In this document: positions 2,057 through 60,032 of the stretch, one piece after another
Numbering within the stretch: position 1 is the first letter of the stretch
Layout: every line of letters begins with the position of its first letter
Assembly (NCBI GenBank): GCA_951804945.1
Contig: OX638153.1
Coordinates: forward strand, 27,280,001-27,344,000
Length of the DNA stretch: 64,000 nucleotides
Reading direction: 5' to 3'
Source: Podarcis cretensis
Taxonomy: Eukaryota
Position numbers and translations under genes: made by a program
The notes under the pieces: generated by a model
What the model was told of the DNA's origin: nothing
Seen by the model: the letters and a program-made list of their open reading frames with translations, nothing else
The model's database searches: none

Positions 2057-2190
2057 TAGGGTTTCCCAAATTTGGGTCTCCAGCTGTTTTTGGACTATAG
2101 TTCCCTTCATCCCTGACCAGTGGTCCTGCTGGATAGGGACGATGGGAGCTGTAGTCCAAAAACAGCTGGGCCCAAGTTTGGAAAACCCTT
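2057..2190. mobile_element. hAT (Charlie-like) palindromic MITE
   Basis: Near-palindrome TAGGGTTTCCCAAA...TTTGGAAAACCCTT; degenerate 8-bp TSD CACTAAAG/CTCTAGAG; same family as 34357-34492. Confidence 0.75.
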
Positions 2191-3619: not shown

Positions 3620-5825
3620 TATTTAAAAAGCAGCCTAGGACTGGAAAAAGTCCTGCATCAGCTACAGTACTAGTATTGGACATAGATGGGAGCCTGTCAG
3701 TCCAGATGTTGTAGGACTCCAGCTTACATCAGCCCCAGCCAGCATAGCCAACTGTCAAGGATGATGGGAGTTGTAGCATCGGCAGGGCTGCAAGTTCCCC
3801 ATCCCCCCATCCCATTTATGTTTCCCCTCTCCAGCTGTTTGTAATCATTCCATTCCCACTGAGCATTCTCAGTTTTTATTGGCTGTTTAGGGGTCTTCAC
3901 GGCTTAGGGGCTGGTGTCTGCCTCTTGTGCATGAGTTGTACCATTATAGGTGTGGAAGGATCAGAGAACTGAGTTTGCTATATGCGGAAGAGAAGTGTGG
4001 GAGGAAACGAGGGAGAAGTGGCTTCAGTATCACTCTGCTAATATATTGTAATAAGAATGCTACTTTGCAGTGTCAACTGAGGAAGTAACCTGTTCAGTAG
4101 TCTTTTGTTTAGCTCACAGCTTGAGCATGTTTCTCAATAGGCCCTGATGTTTTGGCAGGTACTGTCAGCCAAGACCCACCTACCTGCAGTGTGGGAGCTT
4201 AAATGAGTGGTGTATCAGTGTTTATGTGTGTCTTTGAGTGTGGGAGAAAAAGAAAGCAGTATAGCAACATGGAATGTATCTAGAGAGACAGGTCTGATTT
4301 TTGCAGTTGACATGCAGGCAGCCATGAAATTTGGGGCATGTTGCTAGCTGTGAGAAAACTGACACTGCTTCCCAGATTAATGTTGTCTGCATGAGTGCTG
4401 TCTCCTGCAACAGGATTGTGAATTGTGTTTTCGTAAATAAATGGATATTGGAAAAGGTACTCCAATGAAGACCAAAAAGGAAAATTCACAGTGCAATCCT
4501 ATGCATGTTTATTCAGAAGTAAATCCCACTATGCTCTGCATGAGTTACTCTCGGGGAGGTATTGAGCCATAGCACTATAACAATGTCCCTGAAGTAGGGA
4601 GCACTATATATATATATATATAGGATTTAAAATGAGTGTGTCTCCATTACAAAGAAATGAAAATGCTCAAACCCTTTTACGTTCTCTTATTTCAAGCACG
4701 CACTATATGCTGCTGCAAACTTCTTTAAATTGCTTCAGCCCTGTTGTATATCTAGGCACTCAGCCCATTCATGACTTAGAACAAATAGTAAAGGATATTG
4801 AATGTGACACTGTTCTTAGCCTGGCAAGCTGAGCTCACCATGCCTAAGGCAGCTGGCCAGAACAAGCCAGTCTGTGTAATTATGGATGAAACAAGTCTTT
4901 TGCCATCTCTTCTTTCTTCTCACACACCATGCTTAACCACTATTAAGGCATCTGTCTTTCTTACCACCCTCGCTCAGAAATGGGGAAATGTTATTCAGTT
5001 GGTAGAGACTGCTTTCATGTCTTCTGCCATGTCTTGTGAACATACCTTCCCAGATTTGATAATAGGTAAGTCTCCTTGAAGGAAACTGACTATAAATAGG
5101 ATTCCTTGATGCTGTCTAATCTTCTTACAGGCGGTTTTCACTTGTTCATTCATTCTGTCTTTGTTCACTGGGTGGAGTAAAATTAGATTTTCAAGGAAAC
5201 TAGCTAAGAAGGAAATAAACATTTGTTGGCGGATTGGTGCTGTCTGGGAATCATGATCATGAAGTATGCAGATGCCCCTGAACTGGACACTGCTTAAGTA
5301 GTTGTAGTAGCTGACTGGATGAGCTATGAGCCCGTAAGACCCAAGTTCAAATGCAGTTTCATCCTTGACCTTAGAAGTCTGCCTTAGCGGGAAGACAGAT
5401 GCTAACTTATTTAGAAAAGTGGCACACGCAGAGAGCCACTTGTGAGGGGTTAAGCTCATATATATATATATGGAGCAGAAGCTGGGTAACTTAATGATGG
5501 CCCTACCATTAGGCAGAGTGGGCAGCTGCTTCAAGCAGCAAATATTGGGGGGTGGGCAGAGTAAAGAGTAACAGTGAAGTGTTAGAGGGGTGACGTTTGA
5601 CCTCCATCCCTTAAGCTAGCCTGCTGCGTTCAGGTGCAGTGGAGGGCATTGTGAATTGCTAGTGTTAAAAGAGCCAACTGCCAGCTTGGTTAGCTTCTGC
5701 ACATAGAATTGGTGGTGGGGGTGGGGAAGAGCCTGTCCTTCAACTTAGGCATCTTGCCTTGGTTAGGGATAGATGCATCAGCCACCAATTTCACTTTCAG
5801 ATTCTCAGTGATCCAGTCTTAAGTA

Positions 5826-6051
5826 CAGTGGTACCTCGGGTTAAGTACTTAATTCGTTCCAGAGATCCGTTCTTAACCTGAAACTGTTCTTAACCTGAAG
5901 CACCACTTTAGCTAATGGGGCCTCCTGCTGCCGCCGCGCCACCGGAGCATGATTTCTGTTCTCATCCTGAAGCAAAGTTCTTAACCAGAGGTATTATTTC
6001 TGGGTTAGCGGAGTCTGCAACCTGAAGCGTATGTAACCTGAGGTACCACTG
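5826..6051 (+). mobile_element. Tc1/mariner (Tigger-like) MITE, family A copy 1
   Basis: TIR CAGTGGTACCTC...GAGGTACCACTG with TA TSD; five copies in the window. Confidence 0.9.
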
Positions 6052-7947
6052 TACAGTTCACCATCTTTCCACATCAATTTTTGGATTCCCCCCCAACTGT
6101 TAAAAGGGGCTTGCAACTATTTGTCAACATTATCAACTTGCATTTCACCGAATATATACAGTTTTGCAAGCTATTTTCCCCAGTATAATGCACTTCTGCG
6201 TGCTAAATTTCATTAGTATATGCATTTTTATGCAAACTACCATCTAATATACACACTTCTTTACACATTTTTTTTTGTTAGGAGAACCACATCACAAAAT
6301 TGGGATAAGTGTGACTATCAAGGATAGCTGTGTTTTACTTTGAGTCTTGTTTCAGGTGGTGTGAATTTCTTCCCCAGTTTTGAGTCATCTGGTATTGACT
6401 GGCATTGGAAATGTTACCAAGAAGTCTCTCTCCACCCTCAGAGTACTTCTGCAATTTTTTTTTTTAAAAAACCTTCCTTTTTTTTCTTAGTAAGGTGAAG
6501 GGTGAAGCAGTTCTTTTAAAAAAAATGTATGGAAACACAGAGGGCAAGACTGATTGCTGAACTAGAAATCAATTCACTGACATATGTATACCTGGCATTG
6601 AGGTTGTGAGCCTGGGAAGAAACTGGGTTCACATCATGACTGTGGGGCCTATTCTGAGTTTGCTTCTGCCTTCCACTATTTAGGCATGCCACAGTTTCCC
6701 ACTGTTCTGTTCTAATAATGGTCACAACACTGAGAGGGTTCTGAGCAGGGAGAATTTCATGGCCAGATTTCAGGGTCCAGCAGAGCAGAGTTAGGTGAGA
6801 AAAGAAGAAGGAAATACAGGTTTCCACAGAGAGTCAAGGTCCAGATCCTGGTAAAGCAGTGCAAGGCTGAAATTCAGGATGTAGCTATCATCTGTAGGGA
6901 GCTCAAGCTAGAAATTTAGGGGAGCAAGGTTTAATTGTTGTTTCAGCAACAGTCAACTGCAAACAGAGCCTTAAATGAAGTTGCAGTATCAGTGAAAGAA
7001 TCCTCTTCAGTTAAAGGAGTCTAGTTTGCTTATACAACTATCAATTCCAAGGGGACAAGGAAGACCTTAGCTCCAACAGGCCTTCTGGGCTGGAGTTGTC
7101 AGCGAGAAGAGGGCACCATGAGTGCTTAGGCAAAGAACTGCTGGCAAAATGATCTACTTTGGGAGCGGAGCTTCTAGGGCAGTGGGGGTGTCTAGGGTCA
7201 ACACTGAGAGTAATTTCCTCTCCCAGTCTCACGCTGCTTCTGTATCGAAATCGGGTCATTTTAAGAGAGATTTTCTGAAAGTTGTTTATGGGTAGAGAAT
7301 ATAATAATGTTGCTGACACCCATTGCAAGAGTTCTGCTTGCGGACATTTTCTTTTTGAAGTTATGTGCCTGCACTATCAAGCGCTCTGCTGAAAGTTATT
7401 CTGTTAATTGATTCAGCTGGGAATTAGGTGGGGGTGGTAATAGTATGTAATAGTATTTCATATTGGCATCTTCTTATTCTTTCAATGCTCAAAAATGAAG
7501 AAATGAAGGAAGAAATAACCACATGGTGTGACACATCATATGTGCAACTCTGGAACTTATTTGGCATGGTCTGACTGCCAGAGCACACTCACATAAGAGT
7601 TTCAATGTAGAAATATAGGAAGCTGCCTTATTCTTAGTCAGACCACTGGTCCAACTACCTCAGTGCAGCCATACCTCATTTTATTGTGCTTCGCAGATAT
7701 TGCTCCTTATGAGGATGCGGGTGCAGCTACAAACAGCTCAGCCTCTTCCAGGGGAAAAGAAAACCCTCTGCCACTGCCGTCCCTCTTCTGGCCAGGAGTG
7801 GAGCTGGCTACGGCTGGATCTAAGTATTTCCCCTCCTGCGCCTACAGCTGGGGGGTGGTGGTGCTGCCTTAATAGACCGCAGCAGTGGTTTCCAATCAGC
7901 AAAGTACACCAGACACCCTGTTTTTCAAAAGCCAGGCCATGGACTAA

Positions 7948-8180
7948 TATGCACAATGTTAGAAGATGAGCAATTAAATAGGCCTGAGATGGTATGTTTG
8001 ATGTTGTTGAGTCTAGTGATGGTGTTGTCTGGGTGCAGCAAAGTTAGCATCTGGGTTTACTGCAGGCTCTTGTACCAGTGTCCATGTTAAGTCTGGTTGC
8101 TGTATTATTGTGGGCAAGGAGTTGTTTAAGGTTAGGTGGCTGTCTGTAGGCAATGAAAGGTCTTCCTCCCAGAGTTTGGG
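7948..8180 (-). pseudogene. Penelope-like element ORF fragment (Cys-rich linker into GIY-YIG endonuclease)
   Basis: Manual minus-strand translation: FIAYRQPPNLKQLL...GTRACSKPRC*LCC / PDNTITRLNNIKHTISGLFNCSSSNIV; contains a stop and a frameshift. Confidence 0.8.
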
Positions 8181-8196
8181 AAAGAGAACTGTAGTT

Positions 8197-8748
8197 GCTA
8201 TAGTGTCCCGATTAAGGGAAGTAACACTCTGTTCTGCCTTGGTAAGACCACATCTGGAATACTGTGTCCAGTTCTGGGTGCCACAGTTAAAGAAGGCATG
8301 AATGTGTGCAGAGGAGGGCAACCAAAATGACCAAGGGTCTGGAAACCAAGCCTTATGAGGAGCAGTTGAGGGAGTTAGGTATGTTTATCCAGGATAAGAG
8401 GAGACTGAGAGGAGTTATGAGAGCCATCTCCAAATATCCAAAGGGCTGTCACAGGGAAGATGGAGCAGGCTTGTTTTCTCCTACTCCAGAGGGAAGGACT
8501 TGAACCAATGGCTTCAAGTTACAAGAAAGGAGATTCCGACTAAACATTCAAGGGAAACTTTCTGACAATAAGAGCTGTTTAACAGTGGAATAGACTCCCT
8601 CGGAAGGTGGTAGACTCTCCTTCCTTGGAGGTTTTTAAGCAGAGGTTGGATGTTCAATCTGTTATGGATGCTTTAGTTGAGATTCCTGCCTTGCAGGGGG
8701 TTGGACTAGATGTCTCTTGGTGTCCCTTCCAACTCTACAATTTTATGA
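8197..8748 (+). mobile_element. CR1 LINE 3' fragment (ORF2 C-terminus and 3'UTR)
   Basis: SALVRPHLEYCVQFW and QRRATKM..GLE..PYEE.LRELG motifs; tail GTCCCTTCCAACTCTACAATTTTATGA. Confidence 0.92.
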
Positions 8749-8819
8749 CTTCTGGGTCCAGGAAGGTCTTTTTATGAGTACCACAAGCACCTTTTGTTAT
8801 AACCTAATATACATGGGTG

Positions 8820-18687: not shown

Positions 18688-19156
18688 CAACGGCTAAGGC
18701 TCAGTGGAAGAGCACATTTGGCATGTAGGAAGTCCCAAGGTTATCTCCTGGCATTGCCAGATAGGGCTTAGAAACCTTGGGGAGCTGCAACTGAGCTGCG
18801 TCTCTTTAAGTCTAATCTTTTTACACACGAGTTGGCAGTTTATAAATACCTAAATAAATAAATAAATAAGCAAGCAAGCGAAGGAAGTCTGGGTCTGGTC
18901 TGTACCAGTACGGGTAACCTGGGAACCACAACTGTGGGAAATATATATAACAATGTAAATAGATTTATGTATTGATTTCATCCTCTTGTTACTGATTTTG
19001 ATCTATTTTAGATTACATGTTTGTTTTATTTGCATGCCTTCATTTTATGGTTCTAGATCTTAATTTTGTAAACTGTCCAGAGAATTTTCAGAGGGTAGAA
19101 ATATGGCATGCAAACAAAACAAAACAAAACAAAAAGCTATTAGAGATTTTAGCAGA

Positions 19157-19325
19157 AGTGTGCATGCACACGAAAGAAGTGCATGTATCTGAAGAAGTGT
19201 GCATGCACACGAAAGCTCATACCTAGAACTAACTTAGTTGGTCTTTAAGGTGCTACTGGAAGGAATTTTTTTTCTTTTATTTTGTTTTGACTATGGCAGA
19301 CCAACACGGCTACCTACCTGTAACT
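19157..19325 (+). mobile_element. Short Penelope-type insertion (terminal-repeat fragment), copy 1
   Basis: 13-bp TSD AGATTTTAGCAGA at 19144-19156 and 19326-19338; homologous to 49115-49290 and 59101-59259; carries a hammerhead motif. Confidence 0.8.
19185..19222 (+). ncRNA. Minimal type I hammerhead ribozyme motif (PLE type), core intact
   Basis: GUAU-CUGAAGA-A-GUGUGC/AU/GCACAC-GAAA-GC-UC-AUAC: stem I GUAU/AUAC, CUGANGA and GAAA boxes, 6-bp stem II, palindromic AGCU stem III, UC cleavage site. Confidence 0.75.
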
Positions 19326-22300
19326 AGATTTTAGCAGAGTTATTGACCAGACCTGGAGAAGGGCTTCTTTCATGTGATGGTAGACACTCCGCATAAATAT
19401 ATTTATTTATTTACTCAGTTACTGACTAAATCTAAAGAACCCTTCATCAGAGCTCATCTCGGGGCAGGGTAAAATACTATTACAAATCCCCACAAAACCA
19501 TGATTAATGTTATAACAATTGCACAGCAGATATCCATTACCCATGAGAGCCAGTAAAAAATAACCGTAATTAAAACCACAAATCCTTAAAAGCTTCAAAG
19601 TGGGCTACATACTTTCAGCAATACCAGGTTAGGAAGGCTTGAGGAAACAAAGGAAGTTTTTGCTTGGTGCCAAAATGAAACAACAGTTTGTGCCAAACTT
19701 TCTGTACTTGTAAGAGGAGGGTGCTCACACAAGCAAGGTACATGCCACAAAGGCAAGGGTGACCTGGGCTGGTGCAGGGTTTAAAGAGCAAATTGGCAGT
19801 TGGGCAAAAAGTGGGAGCCAGGAGAACTGGAGCAATGCCAGAGCGGGAGGTGAGTGTCAGCATTCTGCAGCAGCTGAAATGCTGGATGCCTTCAGAAGCA
19901 TCTCCATGCAAGGTGAAGTAGCCAAAGCAATGTTTTATCACAGCATGGAAGCATGGTATTAACCTGAAGGGTTTCTGAGATGAACTGCAAAGGAAAGTAA
20001 CCCTGAAGCCCAGAGTCCTCATCAAAATAATTCAGGTTCATAGCCGTGCAACGGGTTCTCATTCACCTATGGTATGGATTAAAACACGAAGAAAGATTTC
20101 ACAGCACATAGTTGTCTTGAGGCTCTTGCCAGTCTTGGTAACCCCCGTTTGGATCCAGAAGATCATTTGCAGAGGTAGCCAATGTGGTGCTTTCTAGGGG
20201 CTGTTGAACTAGGGCTCCCAACATCCCCAGAAGCCACCATGCTATCTGGGGCTGATGGGGGGTTGGCCACATTTGGAGGAACCCACATTGGCTTCCATTG
20301 CAGTAAGGGGATCTTTCACAATGACAACAGAAGCTGGGATTCACTTGCTGATCTTAGGTTTGCAAGTCCCACATCACTGACTTGGTGTCACTCCTGAAGC
20401 TTTTATCGAGATAACGCGAGTGATTCAATGCCTTTTCTGAAGATGAAGAAAACTAAGCCCTTCGGCATCTAATTTCTTTTATACTGGCTTAAGCCTCTCT
20501 TCCTATTGAACTATCAATCTGTCTCTTCAACCCAAAAGGCAGGGAGCATTTGACATCTCAGTAGGACTGCAAAGTTCCTGGGTGGAAATGAGCATAGATG
20601 GCAGGGTGGAGGATAAAGTCCTTTGAAATAGATGAGTATGTGGACATGCATGCAATGGCATTCACCTTTTGGCAACAATGAGAAAAATAACAGGAATTCA
20701 CACTCAGTGTACAAGGGAAAAGATCTCTATACAAATCTAACAATATATTCTCAGTGCCAAATTAAATAACATTGCTGCCAGTTTTTCTTCTTTTAATAGC
20801 ATGATCAACCCTAGTGCACATTAAACCATAGACATACTATTCTATGTTCTCCTCTGATAACAGTATAACTGGCAAATGCTGAGGCAATTCTTGCTGGTTT
20901 CACCCTCTAATTTTTGTTTCTTTTGAAGACTAATCATCTTTCCACTTTAAGATAAAAGCACTATTTTTTTTTTTAGTTTAAAAGCTAACCAACTTAATAA
21001 AACAACTATAGTTATACAATGCAAACATCTGAAAAGAATCACAACAAATACGAAGAGCCATCCTTCTGAAGGAGCAGAAGGTGAGCAGGCAAAAAATAAG
21101 GCCTGATTTGGTGCAAATGTTTTCCAATAACAGGAAGCAAGGGAGGCCTTACCACCTCTTGATCTGAAGAACAGTAGAGCAGATAATGAGAAGGAAATGA
21201 AGCAGTAATTAGTAATTCATTCAGACTGCACAAGCTACTCCAGCATGTAACAGAACAGAAAATGAGCTGTTGCAAACCTATCAGAATGCTGTTTCCCAAC
21301 ATTCCATGGCACTCTGTGACCAAAAAAGGGAACCCAGGATGGGTCTTTGCAGGTAAGTGGAGGCTTGATTTTCAGTGATGGGGGTCACCAGGGAATGATG
21401 TCTAATGATGTCACAGAATTCCAATGAAAACAAAAGCAGAAGTTGCCAATCCCGAGTCTGAAACAAATCAATCCAGCTCTTCCCCACCACCGCTAATCTA
21501 TGAATGATATGTAACTGATTACTCCAAAGGCCAATTAAAAATGCATTTCCTTTTTACTGAAATGGATGGTCTTTGCATTGAAATGAATGGTGGTGTGGAA
21601 ATAATTATGCCATTAATCATGTTAAATTCATAATTTATGCAACCTAGGTAAATAATTATGTAAATGATGTTAGATAGCGAACAGCAAGATGAATAATGTT
21701 GTATTTGGTGGAAACCAAACTACAGCAGAATGGGAACAGCACTGATTGTTGCGAAGACAGGCTAGAAAGGAAATTGCTGCCTTTTTATATCCCCGTCAGG
21801 CATAGATGAAGTTTTCCCTCAGATGGTTTTCCCCCATATTTACTCCTTTACTTTCTTCCATGGGACACTGTTGCAGTAAAGGTAAAACCTGCCCTGAAAC
21901 TGATTTGCACTATCCTTGCACTATCCAAGGGTAAGCTGTAGGTGACAGTGGGGAGATCTGGTTCTCGCAACATCTCTGGCAATGGAGAGCATCTTGCTGG
22001 CATATCCTTTGCAAGCCATCTTTTACATCTTTCACTGATAGCAGTGTTTTAACCTCTGCTGTCGTTGCTTAATACAACATAGGTCCTGATTGATCCGCCC
22101 TACAATCAATTGATCAATTATGAAATCTATATGTAGAGGCTCTCTTTGTAACAAAATGCCTTTGCGGAGCTACAGATGGGCGATTTAAGAACGGCTTACG
22201 TGCATTTATAAATCTCATAAACTTTGTGCCAAGAAGTTAGAGCAGAACAGGATGTTACCCAACCCACAGGAATGGAGTGGATGCTTACAGCAGCAGGCCC

Positions 22301-34356: not shown

Positions 34357-34492
34357 CAGGCACCCCCAAACTCGGTCTTCCAGATGGTTTGGGACTACAG
34401 TTCCTATCATCCCTGACCACTGATCCTGTTAGCTAGGGATGATGGGAGTTGTAGTCCCAACACATCTGGAGGACCGAGTTTGGGGATGCTTG
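34357..34492. mobile_element. hAT (Charlie-like) palindromic MITE
   Basis: CAGGCACCCCCAAACTCGG / CCGAGTTTGGGGATGCTTG; perfect 8-bp TSD CTCTAAAT. Confidence 0.88.
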
Positions 34493-36631: not shown

Positions 36632-36768
36632 TCCTTCCTTGGAGGTTTTTAAGCAGAGGTTGAAGGGCCATGCATTGTGTATGATCTAACTGAGATTCAT
36701 TGCATTGCAGGGGGTTGGACTAGATGACCCTCGGGGTCCCTTACAACATTATGATTCTGTGATTCTAA
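36632..36768 (+). mobile_element. CR1 3' end fragment
   Basis: TCCTTCCTTGGAGGTTTTTAAGCAGAGG...ATGATTCTGTGATTCT. Confidence 0.8.
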
Positions 36769-39905: not shown

Positions 39906-40222
39906 TTATTTATACCCCACCCATCTGACTGGGTTTCCCCAGCCACTCTGGGCAGCTTCCAACATAATATTAAAATACAATAGTCTACTAAACATTTAAA
40001 GCTTCCCTAAACAGGGCTGCCTTCAGATGTCTTCTTAAAAGTCTGGTAGTTGTTGTTCTCTTTGACATCTGGTGGGAGGGCGTTCCACAGGGCGGGTGCC
40101 ACTACCGAGAAGGCCCTCTGCCTGGTTCCCTGTAACTTGGCTTCTTGCAGTGAGGGAACCGCCAGAAGGCCCTTGGCGCTGGACCTCAGTGTCCGGGCAG
40201 AACGATGGGGGTGGAGACGCAT
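39857..40222 (-). mobile_element. L2-type LINE 3' fragment with an adjoining (AAT)n tract (39857-39904)
   Basis: ORF 40007-40300 includes RTLRSS..GLL.VP....GTRQRAFSVVAPALWNALP. Confidence 0.82.
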
Positions 40223-48937: not shown

Positions 48938-49114
48938 AAGGCAAGATAACTCATCTGTACACCCACAAACCAAGAGATAGAGTGGGACCCAACTAGGTAG
49001 TAGTAGTTAGTCTAGCTAGTTCTTGCTATTCCATTCAATGAGGATAGTTCCAGGTGTATTGATGGCTGGCCTTCCTCTATATTCGGTCTGAAAGGACTTA
49101 GATGCTGGATATGA

Positions 49115-49290
49115 AACAAAGTAAAAAAATTCCTCCCAGTAGCACCTTAGAGACCAACTAAGTTTGTTCTTGGTATGTGCTTTCGTGTGCATGCACACTT
49201 CTTCAGATATCTGGTCTCTAAGGTGCTACTAGAAGGATTTTTTTTTACTTTGTTTCGACTATGGCAGACCAACACGTCTACCTAACTGTA
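49115..49290. mobile_element. Short Penelope-type insertion, copy 2, with inverted 5' arm
   Basis: 11-bp TSD GCTGGATATGA at 49104-49114 and 49291-49301; inverted arms ~49113-49156 and 49212-49256; hammerhead motif on the minus strand at 49173-49210. Confidence 0.8.
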
Positions 49291-49730
49291 GCTGGATATG
49301 ATTGAGAGCAAACTACATATTAAATTAAATGCATGGTTTGCACTTGCATCTTTAATTTCAAACAAACTAACAAACAATGGATTGAGAGGGGGCAATCCAG
49401 TCAGGACTGTGCTGGGAGTGGATGGGAGATTAGCCCTTTTCCTTATACCATACTCTAGATGAAATCCCCCTCCTCCCGAGAGCTGCTATTTGCCCAGGTG
49501 GGGAGCTCTTATTGGTGTCACTAGTTGCATTTCTCCCTGTGCAAATAGCAGCTTGAGGGCAGAGGATTTCCATCAGGACTTGGCCTGGCAAGGAGAGGAT
49601 TAAGCCCAAAAGGAGAGGATCAATGGCAGCTGTCAGAAAACCACAAGAACTAAAAAGACAGTTGCACAAATAGAGATGATTCCCAATGCATTTTGGGAAA
49701 AAAAATCTTGACAAAAGAAATTGTTTTTTA

Positions 49731-55297: not shown

Positions 55298-55440
55298 AGA
55301 ATCATAGAGTTATAGAGTTATAAGGGATCAGGGGAATCATCTGGTCCAACCCCCTGCAATGCAGAAATCTTTTGCTCAAAATGGGGCTCAAACCTATAAC
55401 CCTGAGATTAAGAGTTTCATGCTCTACCAACTGAGCTATC
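55298..55440 (-). mobile_element. tRNA-Lys-derived SINE with CR1-like tail
   Basis: Minus strand GATAGCTCAGTTGGTAGAGCATGAAACTCTTAATCTCAGGG head, then TGCATTGCAGGGGGTTGGAC..GATG and (CTCTATGATTCT) tail. Confidence 0.85.
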
Positions 55441-56317: not shown

Positions 56318-59100
56318 TACTACCTCCATGCCCCAGGTGCTGGGGAACAACAGCAGGAGAAGGCTATTTATTATAAGCGGACTTCCCACGGGCTTCTAGT
56401 TGTCCACTGTGGGAAACAAGATGTTGGATTTGATAGACCTTTGCTATGAACTTTTTTCTTTGTTATTTGTCGAAAACCCTAACTTTTGGTTCATTAAGCC
56501 AGTGCGTTCCAATCTGGGTAGATTCTGACTCAGCGTATCTCAACGCACAACTATGACAAAAGTGTATGGTTAACTCTCTTGGGGAGATGGGTGGGCAAAG
56601 ATTGGAGGCTTTTACAGTTATTACCCAGCACCCCGGTTCTCTCTCTCTCATCCTGCTGATCTATGTAGGTGGCAGTAGGTGGCAGCAGCTATTAATTCTT
56701 TGAGATATTTTAGGGTATATTTAGTACCAGCAGTTATCCTGGAGCCATTAGTCAGACATCCACTTTGGCCTACCTGCTAATCCTCTGGGGTAAGGAGACG
56801 GGTAATGACTCTTTAAAAGGCTTCACAGACATCAGACTTTCTATGCACAAACAGGCCCTGGATCTTCTTTTCCCCTTTTGCCAGGATTTTTGCTCTGTTG
56901 CCTGGACTTTGCTTGCCTCGCTTAAGCATCCAGTTCTCCATCTAACCGTTACCCTCTCCTGTTCTTGACAATGTGCCAAAGTGGTGCTGGGAGGCAATTA
57001 GTTTGTTACTGAAACAAAAGTGCTGCCCTCATAAAAAAAAAAAAAGTTCTGTTTTAATCTGTCACCAGGTTTTGGGTTATCTGAATCACTTCTTTCTGTG
57101 CTTCATAGCTTGGAATTCAGCTGACTATTACTGAAATTACCTTAGCGAACGGAACATCCAGAATTGCACTGACAACCCCATATAGCTAAATCATTTACTA
57201 AGCATCTGACTTTTATAACTTCCTTCAGTAGGGACAAAACAAATCAAAGGCAAAGGGGGAACACAGGAGTTGCGCTCAACCCAGATAGGCTATTGTATGC
57301 CCCTACTATCTTTGACTCTTATTTTTTACTTTCTCCCATCCCACACATTAAAAATAATAATAACTGAAAATCCTAGGTTTGGGTTCAGCAGAAAGCCTAA
57401 CCCTGGGGGAATTATTTGCCAGCAGTAGATCAGAACCTAGATTGGACATAGGGAGAAAGTGCAGAGATTTCAGAGTGCAGTGTGGGCTGTTTGAAGGCCC
57501 ATTTGCAAACAAGCCCATGCTGCTCTTTAAACCCCTAAAACCTGAAGGCTCAAAGGGCAGCATGGGAGATCTTGCAAAAGGGCTTTGAAATAGCCTCACA
57601 CTGCACTGGGAGAGAGGAACACTTCCCCCTCCTAGAGCTAGCTGTGCTCCCACTGCTCAGCAGCTGATGGGGCATAGGGGAGTGCTTTGCACTAGCAAAG
57701 GAACAATTGGGAGCTCACGTTGAGCTCCCAGTTGTTCTTTTGAGGCCCTGCCCTTACCTGCTGCACACATGATGTCATGTTTATTGTCAGGTGTAGGGCA
57801 GGCGGCTGTGGCTTGCCCTATACTCCAAGCCCAAATGGGGAGGCCTGCTGGGCTACGTTTGGCCCATGGGTTGGAAGTTCTCCACCCCTGTCCAGGGTCC
57901 TTTCCCCACAGTGGCTAACCAGATACCACTGGGAAACCCACAAATAGGGCACGGGGCATCAGCCCTCTCCTGCTGCAGTTATCATGATTTGTAGATCGTG
58001 AAGACAGCAGACGACTTGCAGCCATCACAGCCAGAGTTTGCCACTGGGTTGTAATTGTTTATTATGTATTGTAAGTATTTTTATAGTGCCCTTCCATCAT
58101 ATTCCCAGGGAGGCCAGAAAAAGAACAAAACATTTATGTAAATACCCGTATATTTATATATGCTGCAAAATTATAAGTCATCCAGACAATTTCTAAAGAG
58201 CCTGGGAAACTGGTCTCACCGCTTGGCATGGTCAGAGCCTCTTGGCCAGAGCTTATAAGATGTTTAAAAATATGTAAAGCTTCAGAACTAGCTTAAATTG
58301 CTTAAAGCTATTATTACAGTAATTGAAACATCATTCCATTCTGGGAGCAACATCAAACATTTCCTTTTATCAGGCTGCCTATAGATATTAAGGCTAAACC
58401 AAGCTAGTGTCGTCTCTGGGGTAAGATACAGTAGAAGTCTATTGGCTTCAACCAAGTACAAGCATTTGCGGGATTTTTTTCCTACCCCTTTTGATACAGG
58501 TCAATGATCCCATTAATGTCACCTGATAAGAAAGTCAGGACCTTTATAAATTAAAGATCACATGTCCTGGGAAAACTAGTTCTTGTTTTAATTTAAAACA
58601 GGCTGTTGGTGGGTTGTTGTGTGTGGGGGGGTGTTAGGGGATAGAGTTTACTCTTCATTTCAAAACAGTTCACAGTATATTGTCAGTTTAGTTCCTGACT
58701 TTATTTGAGAAAAGATCAAAGATTCCTGAAAATTGATGTGTAGAATGCATTTAATCATTTCATTGCAATGTGCTGAATAAGTTAATAGTTGAGAAGACTC
58801 TGTCAAGCATGATACTAAGTAACACAATTGGGCGAGAGTCAACAAAGTCCTTTATCCACATACCTGGGAGTGAATTCAGTGGGACTTCCTTCCAAGCTGG
58901 CAGGTATAGGGTGACAATGTGAGTCTTCTTGATTTCAAAAGGAGTTGCAAACATGTGCTTAGATCTCTCCCACTATCCTTAATGGGACAGTGTATAGGGA
59001 AGTTTTTTATGATTGGTGTTTTTACTGTGTTTGATGTTTTAATTTGTTGGAAGCCACCCAGACTGTCTGGGGCAACCCAGTCAGATGAGTGACATATAAA

Positions 59101-59259
59101 CAGTCTGGTGACTTCTGTTTCAGTGTATCTGAAGAAGTGTGAATGCACACAAAAGCTTATATCAAGAACAAATAGTTGGTCTCTAAGGTGCTACTGGACA
59201 TTTATTTTTATTTTTATATATATTTCAACTGTGTCAGACCAACACGGCTACCTACCTGA
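59101..59259 (+). mobile_element. Short Penelope-type insertion, copy 3
   Basis: 7-bp TSD ATATAAA at 59094-59100 and 59260-59266; degenerate hammerhead at 59125-59162; inserted at the end of an L2-type tail. Confidence 0.75.
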
Positions 59260-60032
59260 ATATAAATCATTAGTGTAACTTTGACTTAATTGCATCCATA
59301 TCCTGGACTGAAAAGCATGAATCTCACATTGCGTCTTTCCCTTTATGGTCTTATAATGATTTCCCATAAACATGCGTTATCATAATATTGAGTATATATT
59401 ACAATGAATTTCAAAAAGTCAGTGAATGTGAACACTCCTTGGTGAACTACATAAATGTCCTGAAACATAAACATTCGCACTTGGGATCCCAGTGAATGGT
59501 GAGAATTGCAGTCAGTAGACCGCCATAGCTATCTGCACATGAAACACACCCCATCCATGAACCATCATTTACTGAATATGTGAGGGACAGTGGATCATAC
59601 CTGGTGCTTACAATCTCAATGCTGATTTGCCCCCAGGCCAAGCCTGGTAGCTGCACATTCTGCATTAGTGGGGGGGGGGGCTATACATTTACAGCCCAGG
59701 GTTCCCAATGATATGGGGAAGATGGTACATGGGCAGGGCCTTTGCATACAGAAGGTCCCATGTCAAATCACCAGCATTTCCAGACAGAGCTGGGAGAAAC
59801 CCTTGTCTGAAAATCTGAAGAGTTTCTGCCAGTGGGTGTAGATTCAGCCACATAGAACTGGGGGTAGAGATAGACTTTCATGTTAATTTTCTGGGATGGT
59901 CCTCAGTGACACATGAATATCAACATTTGCCAAATTTTGGACATTCACTGATATAGGGTAATGTCCAACTCAGTCATACTCAGGAGCAGTGCTGGATTTA
60001 TGTATAGGCTAAGTAGGCTGAAGCCTAGGGCC

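What the first reader, a model, noticed from the sequence alone, without database searches (positions are those of the whole stretch)
19144..19338. Intact minimal hammerhead ribozyme inside a 170-bp non-coding Penelope-type retroposon
Seen: GTAT CTGAAGA A GTGTGC AT GCACAC GAAA GC TC ATAC at 19185-19222 folds as a type I hammerhead with all core nucleotides, one extra A before stem II, and a self-complementary AGCU in place of stem III; predicted cleavage is after 19218. A partial second copy (stem II plus GAAAG) lies just upstream, and a 13-bp TSD bounds the unit. Known: Penelope-like elements carry minimal hammerheads thought to cleave as dimers. Inference: the three ORF-less copies here end at about the same 3' position, each with its own TSD, so they may be a non-autonomous ribozyme-bearing retroposon family mobilised by the PLE seen at 7948-8180.
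Basis: partly seen in the sequence, partly recalled or inferred. Interest (0 to 1): 0.75.

Follow-up and report, generated by a model that had tools for sequence, protein, structure and literature searches.

The report
Penelope retroelement end carrying hammerhead ribozyme
This is an insertion, absent at the same spot in two related organisms, of the short non-coding end of a very abundant, probably lizard, jumping gene that carries a textbook minimal hammerhead ribozyme motif; such copies likely form when a Penelope-type enzyme starts copying inside its own RNA and runs to the RNA's capped start, so the element is of a known kind but offers a testable clue to how these elements copy.

Summary
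The motif is real: a minimal type I hammerhead at 19185-19222, the only descriptor hit in the window (chance about 0.01 per 64 kb), built like the turtle motif published by Cervera and de la Pena in 2014. The 13-bp duplication is a true target-site duplication: contigs of two related organisms bridge the empty site, one short by exactly 182 bp. The family is very large (5,000-7,000 contigs per DNA run) and has Penelope pseudo-LTR anatomy: a 35-38-nt tail, an inverted tail-less arm, partial tandems. Corrections: the core unit is about 141 bp (19185-19325); the 'partial second copy' is junction debris that is predicted to block the ribozyme fold, not to partner it; no sequence link to the Neptune-type fragment at 7949-8199 was found; a separate non-autonomous family is not shown. 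Many copies begin at 19185-19186, often after an extra G, 31 nt downstream of a TATA box seen in longer copies, and not at the cleavage site. Best reading (0.6): cDNAs running from Penelope's internal start site to the capped 5' end of uncleaved RNA. Known kind, modest interest.

The parts
19144..19156 (+). Left target-site duplication (13 bp; last AGA also matches the element)
   Evidence: empty site in runs X14 and X6 (table 8)
19154..19184 (+). Junction-specific templated duplicate: copy of 19193-19215 (stem II + GAAAG) plus a second snippet copied from 19195-19205 with a 2-nt slip; inferred template jumps at the 5' junction; predicted to sequester stem II
   Evidence: held by run X1 record 1; similar jumps back to 19184/5 in other copies (table 5c)
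19185..19222 (+). Minimal type I hammerhead motif; predicted cleavage after C19218
   Evidence: architecture as in PMC4209133 and its supplement
19185..19325 (+). Core unit of the family (about 141 bp; family continues through AGA-ACT): inferred transcription-start-to-tail part of a PLE pseudo-LTR
   Evidence: tables 2, 5c, 7
19288..19325 (+). Tail (35-38 nt), present on one arm and absent from the inverted arm of the 49-kb copy; inferred to lie between two reverse-transcription start sites
   Evidence: PMC11167929, PMC3846280
19326..19338 (+). Right target-site duplication (first AGA also matches the element)
   Evidence: table 7, 65
49114..49209 (-). Second copy, inverted arm: starts at the 19186 equivalent, ends before the tail; hammerhead U16.1 changed to A; left TSD 49104-49113
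49212..49290 (+). Second copy, direct arm with tail (19239-19322 equivalent); right TSD 49291-49300
59103..59258 (+). Third, more decayed copy (83% identity) reaching about 22 nt upstream of the hammerhead; 7-bp TSD 59094-59100 / 59260-59266; core G12 changed to A
7949..8199 (-). Broken internal fragment of a Neptune-type PLE ORF (RT thumb end, Cys linker, start of GIY-YIG); no TSD found; not shown to belong to the hammerhead family

Best explanation
The unit is a target-site-duplicated retroposed copy of the hammerhead-and-tail end of a likely Neptune-type Penelope-like element, and it likely arose when the element's reverse transcriptase started at its internal tail site and copied only about 140 nt, up to the capped 5' end of an uncleaved RNA that began at the pseudo-LTR promoter. 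Steps: (shown) insertion into a site that is empty in two related organisms, with a 10-13-bp TSD; (shown) family-wide 3' ends at the tail and many 5' ends at 19185-19186; (inferred) a TATA box 31 nt upstream makes G19185 the transcription start and the extra G is the copied cap; (inferred from PMC11167929) the GIY-YIG nuclease nicks AT-rich DNA and the RT starts inside the RNA; (inferred) on reaching the RNA end the RT often jumps to another RNA position, giving the partial duplicate here, head-to-tail dimers and inverted arms elsewhere; (predicted) the copy lacks the TATA box and its ribozyme is misfolded by the duplicate, so it is a dead-end passenger. Whether the template is the autonomous element's own mRNA (cis) or a promoter-retaining solo pseudo-LTR (trans) is open.
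For: Empty sites: X14 record 9 is shorter by exactly 182 bp = insert plus one TSD; X6 record 25 by 191 across a neighbouring simple repeat; X1 holds both junctions (table 8, 65). Contigs starting at 19185/19186 with unrelated AT-rich flank (agreement 0.37-0.42): 52+22 (X1), 69+25 (X6), 50 (X14), 10 (X19); contigs continuing upstream at 19184: 55, 48, 40, 11 (table 7; 24 of 358 rows shown). The flank consensus before 19185 ends in G in 4 of 4 runs; 4 of 5 joints into 19185 end in G (table 5c, 12 of 13 rows shown; p about 0.03 if G has 0.3). The 30-letter upstream consensus in X19 begins TATATAAG, 31 nt before G19185; the antisense reading of P0013 (..TEVTRPLY..) fits the same upstream stretch; the -31/-30 TATA spacing is recalled knowledge; untemplated G as copied cap is from PMC3287187 (passages). 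TATA + Inr + tail + shorter inverted arm is the pLTR plan in PMC3846280 (passages). In the Anolis PLE, RT starts internally, products shorten with 5' truncation of the RNA, and uncleaved RNA is the main template (PMC11167929). None of the 24 loose-end rows shown is at 19219. Four head-to-tail joints from 19325/19328 to 19181/19185 and five jumps from 19203-19227 back to 19184/5 (table 5c). The closest published motif is the painted-turtle one, and the closest listed proteins to the lacertid-like Neptune ORF are turtle ORFs at 66-70%: circumstantial for Neptune.
Against: No RNA 5'-end data; the start site is inferred from spacing. Only 24 of 358 loose-end rows were shown, and small rows (6, 1) are among them, so the unseen rows cannot be bounded. 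Contig counts are not copy counts, and upstream-continuing copies collapse into fewer contigs, which inflates the share of junction contigs. A large class of copies continues upstream of 19184 (55, 48, 40, 11 contigs; the 59103 copy; P0013), so ordinary truncation from read-through RNA also happens. The G could be a master-copy variant. No ORF-bearing locus with this pseudo-LTR was retrieved. D. virilis Penelope uses a TATA-less internal promoter (PMC2377424), so TSS-starting copies might still be transcribed.
Confidence: 0.6

Rival explanations
1. Ordinary random 5' truncation of cDNAs made from long coding PLE RNA; the pile-up at 19185 is a stall or annealing hot spot at the hammerhead helices, or an alignment effect.
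For: PLE insertions are described as heavily 5'-truncated (PMC8557442, PMC8969392); most min-HHRs occur as single motifs 'probably related to truncated PLEs' (PMC4209133); upstream-continuing contigs are about as many as those starting at 19185 (table 7); the 59103 copy and arm B at 19239 have other 5' ends.
Against: A 2-nt-wide cluster in 4 of 4 runs, a G before it, and a TATA box at -31 would all be coincidences; 2 of the 3 window copies have an end at 19185/6.
Confidence: 0.2
2. An independent non-autonomous family (SINE-like or retrozyme-like) with its own masters, transcribed from an internal promoter or by read-through, possibly processed by dimeric hammerheads into circles, and mobilised in trans by a PLE.
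For: Defined 5' and 3' ends and very high abundance; head-to-tail dimers exist (table 5c); family variants at 19218, 19224, 19226 (table 3); non-LTR retrozymes are proposed to derive from pLTRs, with a mean reptile consensus of 176 bp (bioRxiv 10.64898/2026.07.22.740005).
Against: This locus and the two others are monomers or inverted arms, not arrays; a circle made by cleavage would be permuted at 19218/9, and no such end is among the rows shown; the unit is colinear with upstream pLTR sequence; 8 of 9 tested Xenopus dimers did not cleave; 2 of 3 window copies have broken cores.
Confidence: 0.15
3. A host-domesticated ribozyme that acts on a host transcript at this locus.
For: The core at 19185-19222 is intact.
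Against: The insertion is absent at the orthologous site in two related organisms; the fold is predicted to be blocked by the duplicate (pairing probability of stems I and II about 0.000 against 0.83-0.94 without it); no Pfam match above cut-off in 50 of the 169 ORFs that I scanned, though small exons would be missed.
Confidence: 0.03

Closest known systems
Minimal hammerheads of metazoan Penelope-like elements (Cervera and de la Pena 2014, PMC4209133; main text parts 1-2 of 4 read, supplement searched), especially the Chrysemys picta bellii motif
   Same: CUGAAGA plus extra A, G10.1-C11.1, GUG..CAC stem II, palindromic GC at 15.2/16.2 with no loop 3, 4-bp stem I, dispersed single copies by the thousand; the turtle motif has U17, which is a 9-15% variant here.
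   Different: Stem II here is a perfect 14-nt palindrome that can pair between two copies; this lizard-type sequence was not found in the searched supplement files (file 1 not searched) or in full text.
Poseidon element of Anolis carolinensis, PAc (Frangieh et al. 2024, PMC11167929; parts 1-3 of 4 read, three supplements opened)
   Same: Hammerhead just upstream of an AC-rich tail; two internal RT start sites bounding a 30-40-nt tail; AT-rich targets; both strands nicked (fits the inverted copy); an ATG inside the hammerhead with copy ends 118-126 nt downstream (111-118 in PAc); uncleaved RNA as template.
   Different: Different sequence by eye; the neighbouring ORF fragment has the Neptune Cys linker rather than the Poseidon plan; the parts of that paper I read do not describe genomic 5' ends at the transcription start or a copied cap.
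Neptune-clade EN+ PLEs (Craig et al. 2021, PMC8557442, passages; Arkhipova et al. 2013, PMC3846280, passages)
   Same: Partial tandems, inverted 5' arm lacking the tail, 7-13-bp TSDs, TATA about 20 nt before an Inr-like sequence in the pLTR; Cys linker in the 7949-8199 fragment.
   Different: No ORF was physically linked to this pseudo-LTR in my data.
Animal non-LTR retrozymes (Cervera and de la Pena 2020, PMC7229834, passages; Li et al. 2026 bioRxiv, parts 1-3 of 5 read)
   Same: Short, non-coding, type I hammerhead, long TSDs, proposed PLE origin; some head-to-tail dimers.
   Different: Minimal rather than canonical hammerhead; dispersed monomers; ends set by tail and predicted start site rather than by cleavage; circles not tested.

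Membership tests
PLE minimal hammerhead (min-HHR) | Catalytic core CUGANGA, GAAA, UH with stems I and II | tested here: met
PLE minimal hammerhead (min-HHR) | Extra nucleotide between A9 and 10.1; G10.1-C11.1; palindromic 15.2/16.2 without loop 3 | tested here: met
   A19196; G19197-C19210; GC 19215-19216
PLE minimal hammerhead (min-HHR) | Self-cleavage as a dimer or with protein help | not testable with these tools
   needs a cleavage assay; at this locus the fold is predicted to be blocked
EN+ Penelope-like element (Neptune clade) | Pseudo-LTR with hammerhead and optional 30-40-bp tail; inverted arms and partial tandems | tested here: met
   35-38-nt tail, tail-less inverted arm at 49114-49209, tandem joints
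EN+ Penelope-like element (Neptune clade) | Insertion with a variable-length TSD in AT-rich DNA | tested here: met
   13, 10 and 7 bp; empty sites in X14 and X6
EN+ Penelope-like element (Neptune clade) | Same element encodes RT + Cys linker + GIY-YIG next to this pseudo-LTR | tested here: inconclusive
   such an ORF family exists (P0005) but no locus or protein joins it to the unit; no genome held
Non-LTR retrozyme | At least two consecutive units, each with a complete hammerhead | tested here: not met
   one complete motif at this locus and in the window; four head-to-tail joints exist elsewhere in the family (table 5c)
Non-LTR retrozyme | Circular RNA with ends set by self-cleavage | tested here: inconclusive
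   no loose-end row at 19219 among 24 of 358 shown; contigs cannot show circles
SINE | tRNA/5S/7SL-derived Pol III head and a simple-repeat or poly(A) 3' end | tested here: not met
   no such Rfam match at 19144-19338; 3' end is the tail, not poly(A)

The most novel reading that the evidence does not exclude
In this reptile family a large share of the many thousands of short copies are complete cDNAs of the first 100-145 nt of the capped Penelope transcript: internal initiation at the tail plus run-off at the cap, followed by template jumps. The genome would then record in vivo the start site, the copied cap and the jumps that build pseudo-LTRs and retrozyme-like dimers, show that hammerhead cleavage does not set the ends of inserted copies, and imply that any solo pseudo-LTR keeping its TATA box can act as a non-autonomous master without needing a processed 3' end.
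Probability: 0.45. Interest if true: 0.55.

Novelty: new member of a known kind. Interest (0 to 1): 0.35.

Why it matters
The motif and its host element are known kinds, so the finding as written is ordinary. What adds value is the end map: PLE mobilisation is still poorly understood (PMC2377424 notes no obvious mechanism for regenerating pseudo-LTRs; PMC11167929 showed internal initiation only in vitro and in 3' ends). If copy 5' ends mark the capped start, one young, very high-copy family gives thousands of natural read-outs of initiation, run-off and template jumping, and a route from PLE ends to retrozymes. It can be tested with one assembled genome and CAGE.

Tried and rejected
No whole genome is held, so copy number, length distribution and covariation could not be measured directly. 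Rfam does not detect the motif. Exact-pattern scans found 0 loci in viral, metagenome (19) and prokaryote-genome contigs (74); protein-based scans found none in metagenome and viral contigs (40, 41). Protein searches with the unit's reading frame returned only chimeric gene calls over inserted copies (3; 5, of which P0137 is a weak, probably unrelated hit), none running into an RT; no N-terminus among the 55 relatives printed (of 120 listed, 648 found) or any blastx hit among the stored proteins matched the unit. No RNA holder listed; run X19 is only guessed to be RNA, so I used it for sequence only and draw nothing on expression. Summed depth (1.9 million against 16.6 in flanks, X1) is not a copy number; I use only the number of contigs laid. 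The loose ends 'behind 19223' reflect family variants at 19224-19230, not cleavage. 'Core more conserved than flanks': no core position other than C17U reached 5%, but neutral decay per site would also stay below 5%, so this is no test; 2 of 3 window copies have broken cores. The partial duplicate as dimer partner: rejected. The TTTCAG before 19184 as an intron end (as in D. virilis Penelope) was considered; it would give copies starting with T19184 and does not explain the G. The bacterial promoter scan is irrelevant to this organism. Earlier scan findings: none for this sequence or genome; the 8 shown concern other systems. Lunse et al. 2017 (dimer cleavage) is not held; I know it only through the review PMC6765202 (passages). 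Literature searches for a description of start-site-defined PLE copies: searches found none. Unseen material that may bear on novelty: bioRxiv supplements of Li et al. 2026 (reptile retrozyme families), the PAc consensus file and picture-only figures of PMC11167929, file 1 of PMC4209133, and Repbase/Dfam, where this family is probably already catalogued (my expectation, untested).
Full report
Observation. The sequence at 19185-19222 and the 13-bp direct repeat at 19144-19156 / 19326-19338 are as described. All hammerhead core positions are present, with the extra A before stem II, G10.1-C11.1 and a palindromic GC in place of loop 3, which are the features listed for PLE minimal hammerheads in PMC4209133. 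A descriptor I wrote gave 1 hit in the window, 2 loose and 0 strict hits in 200 shuffles totalling 12.8 Mb. Rfam did not report it and its folding energy is not unusual (z -0.44); the isolated 38-mer does fold with stems I and II as its best structure. The supplement of PMC4209133 lists a painted-turtle motif of the same build.

Host and neighbour. The fragment at 7949-8199 (minus strand) matches the RT thumb end, Cys linker and start of the GIY-YIG domain of P0005 at 83-85% with one stop and one frameshift; P0005 has RVT_1 and GIY-YIG domains. All 9 named hits of the 10 are Podarcis or Zootoca proteins (77-88%), so the window is probably from a lacertid lizard (inference). The Cys linker marks Neptune and Nematis (PMC8557442). 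The nearest listed relatives of P0005 are turtle ORFs at 66-70%. No TSD was found around the fragment.

The insertion is real and lineage-restricted. I laid 4 of the 24 runs listed on 18700-19900. Run X1 (organism A) holds the 5' junction with the partial duplicate and the 3' junction. One contig each of X14 (organism H) and X6 (organism C) covers both flanks with only 44 and 33 letters between; the window has 226 and 224, so the differences are 182 (exactly insert plus one TSD) and 191 (across a simple repeat). The family is large: 6,042, 7,076 and 5,076 contigs were laid in the three larger runs, nearly all on 19151-19355; summed depth is not a copy number.

Anatomy of the family. The two other window copies end at the equivalents of 19322 and 19320 with TSDs of 10 and 7 bp. 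The 49-kb copy has an inverted arm that stops before a 35-nt tail and a direct arm that carries it: the arrangement described for PLE pseudo-LTRs (PMC3846280, PMC8557442). In the runs, 3' loose ends lie at 19326-19328 and the consensus continues ACT in 4 of 4 runs, so the AGA of the right TSD is also element sequence. An ATG in loop II (19203) lies 118-126 nt before these ends, close to the 111-118 nt of the internal RT start in the Anolis element (PMC11167929). Shared 3' ends are therefore what any PLE copy shows and do not by themselves define a non-autonomous family.

The 5' ends. Of 358 loose-end rows, 24 are shown (table 7). Contigs that continue upstream at 19184 with family sequence number 55, 48, 40 and 11 (X1, X6, X14, X19). 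Contigs that begin at 19185 or 19186 with unrelated AT-rich flank number 52+22, 69+25, 50 and 10. The flank consensus before 19185 ends in G in 4 of 4 runs, and 4 of 5 joints into 19185 end in G (table 5c, 12 of 13 rows shown). The upstream consensus in X19 (11 contigs, agreement 0.67) starts with TATATAAG 31 nt before G19185; the antisense reading at the start of P0013 fits the same stretch. A TATA box at -31/-30 is the usual spacing (recalled), and an untemplated G at full-length 5' junctions is attributed to the copied cap for L1 and SVA (PMC3287187). No row shown lies at the cleavage site 19219. Caveats: unseen rows cannot be bounded, contigs are not copies, shared upstream sequence collapses into few contigs, and the start site has no RNA support.

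The partial second copy. 19154-19176 repeats 19193-19215 and 19177-19185 repeats 19195-19205 with a 2-nt slip. Five joints from 19203-19227 back to 19184/5 and four from 19325/19328 to 19181/19185 occur in other copies (table 5c), so this is a recurrent junction type, best read as template jumps after run-off (inference). It lacks CUGANGA and the AGCU needed for a dimeric stem III. Because stem II is a perfect 14-nt palindrome, the duplicate pairs with it (-26.6 kcal/mol), and the probabilities of stems I and II fall from 0.83-0.94 to about 0.000. In read-through RNA this ribozyme is predicted to be off. The other two window copies have broken cores.

Mechanism. Most likely (0.6): a PLE protein binds RNA started at the pseudo-LTR promoter, nicks AT-rich DNA, starts reverse transcription at the nearby tail and runs off the capped end after 100-145 nt, inserting a start-to-tail copy with a TSD; jumps at run-off give duplicates, dimers and inverted arms. 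Longer copies come from read-through or tandem RNA. The hammerhead is a passenger in such copies; its job would be in the two-pLTR transcript, as a dimer or with protein help (PMC4209133; PMC11167929; PMC6765202). Shown: insertion, TSD, end positions in the rows seen. Inferred: start site, cap, enzyme, jumps. Rivals: random truncation with a hot spot (0.2), an independent non-autonomous or retrozyme family (0.15), a domesticated ribozyme (0.03).

What could not be shown. No locus or protein joins the unit to a Neptune ORF; the link to 7949-8199 rests on clade, co-occurrence and the turtle parallel. Cleavage, expression and circles are untested.

Comparison and verdict. The motif is a member of the PLE min-HHR class, the unit meets the pseudo-LTR tests, fails the retrozyme array test at this locus and is not a SINE. 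Thousands of dispersed min-HHRs, including in reptiles, were reported in 2014, and a 2026 preprint derives retrozymes from pLTRs. Ten literature searches found no description of start-site-defined, cap-marked PLE copies, but repeat databases and several supplements were out of reach. New member of a known kind; interest 0.35; the bolder reading has probability 0.45 and would merit 0.55.

Noticed in passing
window 19197-19210: Stem II is a perfect 14-nt palindrome; two monomers are predicted to co-fold through a 14-bp duplex with swapped stems I (-30.6 kcal/mol), a possible extra dimerisation handle or an inhibitory fold.
   Followed up: partly
window 19203-19328: An ATG in the hammerhead loop opens a frame that in other copies is stop-free through the tail and in frame with a downstream ATG seen in the loose-end consensus; gene callers have made chimeric proteins of it, including a Zootoca RefSeq model (P0015). 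Whether it is the real ORF start is unknown.
   Followed up: partly
window 19218: C17 is U in about 9-15% of summed depth in the three larger runs (table 3), a change that keeps the NUH cleavage rule and matches the published turtle motif.
   Followed up: partly
window 59094-59100: The third copy inserted into an ATATAAA at the end of another repeat (59045-59100 resembles 39909-39964); the target resembles the family's own TATA box, suggesting annealing at the 5' junction.
   Followed up: no
window 2065-2181 and 34365-34483: Two related long hairpins (79% alike) that score below threshold against microRNA models; they look like a MITE-type inverted repeat family.
   Followed up: no
window 55380-55439 (-): tRNA-like match above the Rfam gathering score (35.7 bits), next to a repeat shared with 8680-8757 and 36701-36766; probably a tRNA-derived SINE head.
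   Followed up: no
window 8200-8600: The Neptune fragment directly abuts what reads like a CR1-type LINE fragment (recognised from recall of the translated motif).
   Followed up: no
window 19844: Run X6 has a 26-nt insertion relative to the window in the right flank (table 4).
   Followed up: no
P0004, P0006-P0011: Zootoca RefSeq models in which most carry a CARD domain (PF00619) joined to the Neptune linker and GIY-YIG region, in several isoforms and loci; possible exonisation of a PLE nuclease into a CARD gene, or an annotation artefact.
   Followed up: no
PAc template sequence in PMC11167929: By eye, a TATA-like run lies about 35 nt before the hammerhead core of the Anolis Poseidon element, so the start-just-before-the-hammerhead layout may be general.
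   Followed up: no
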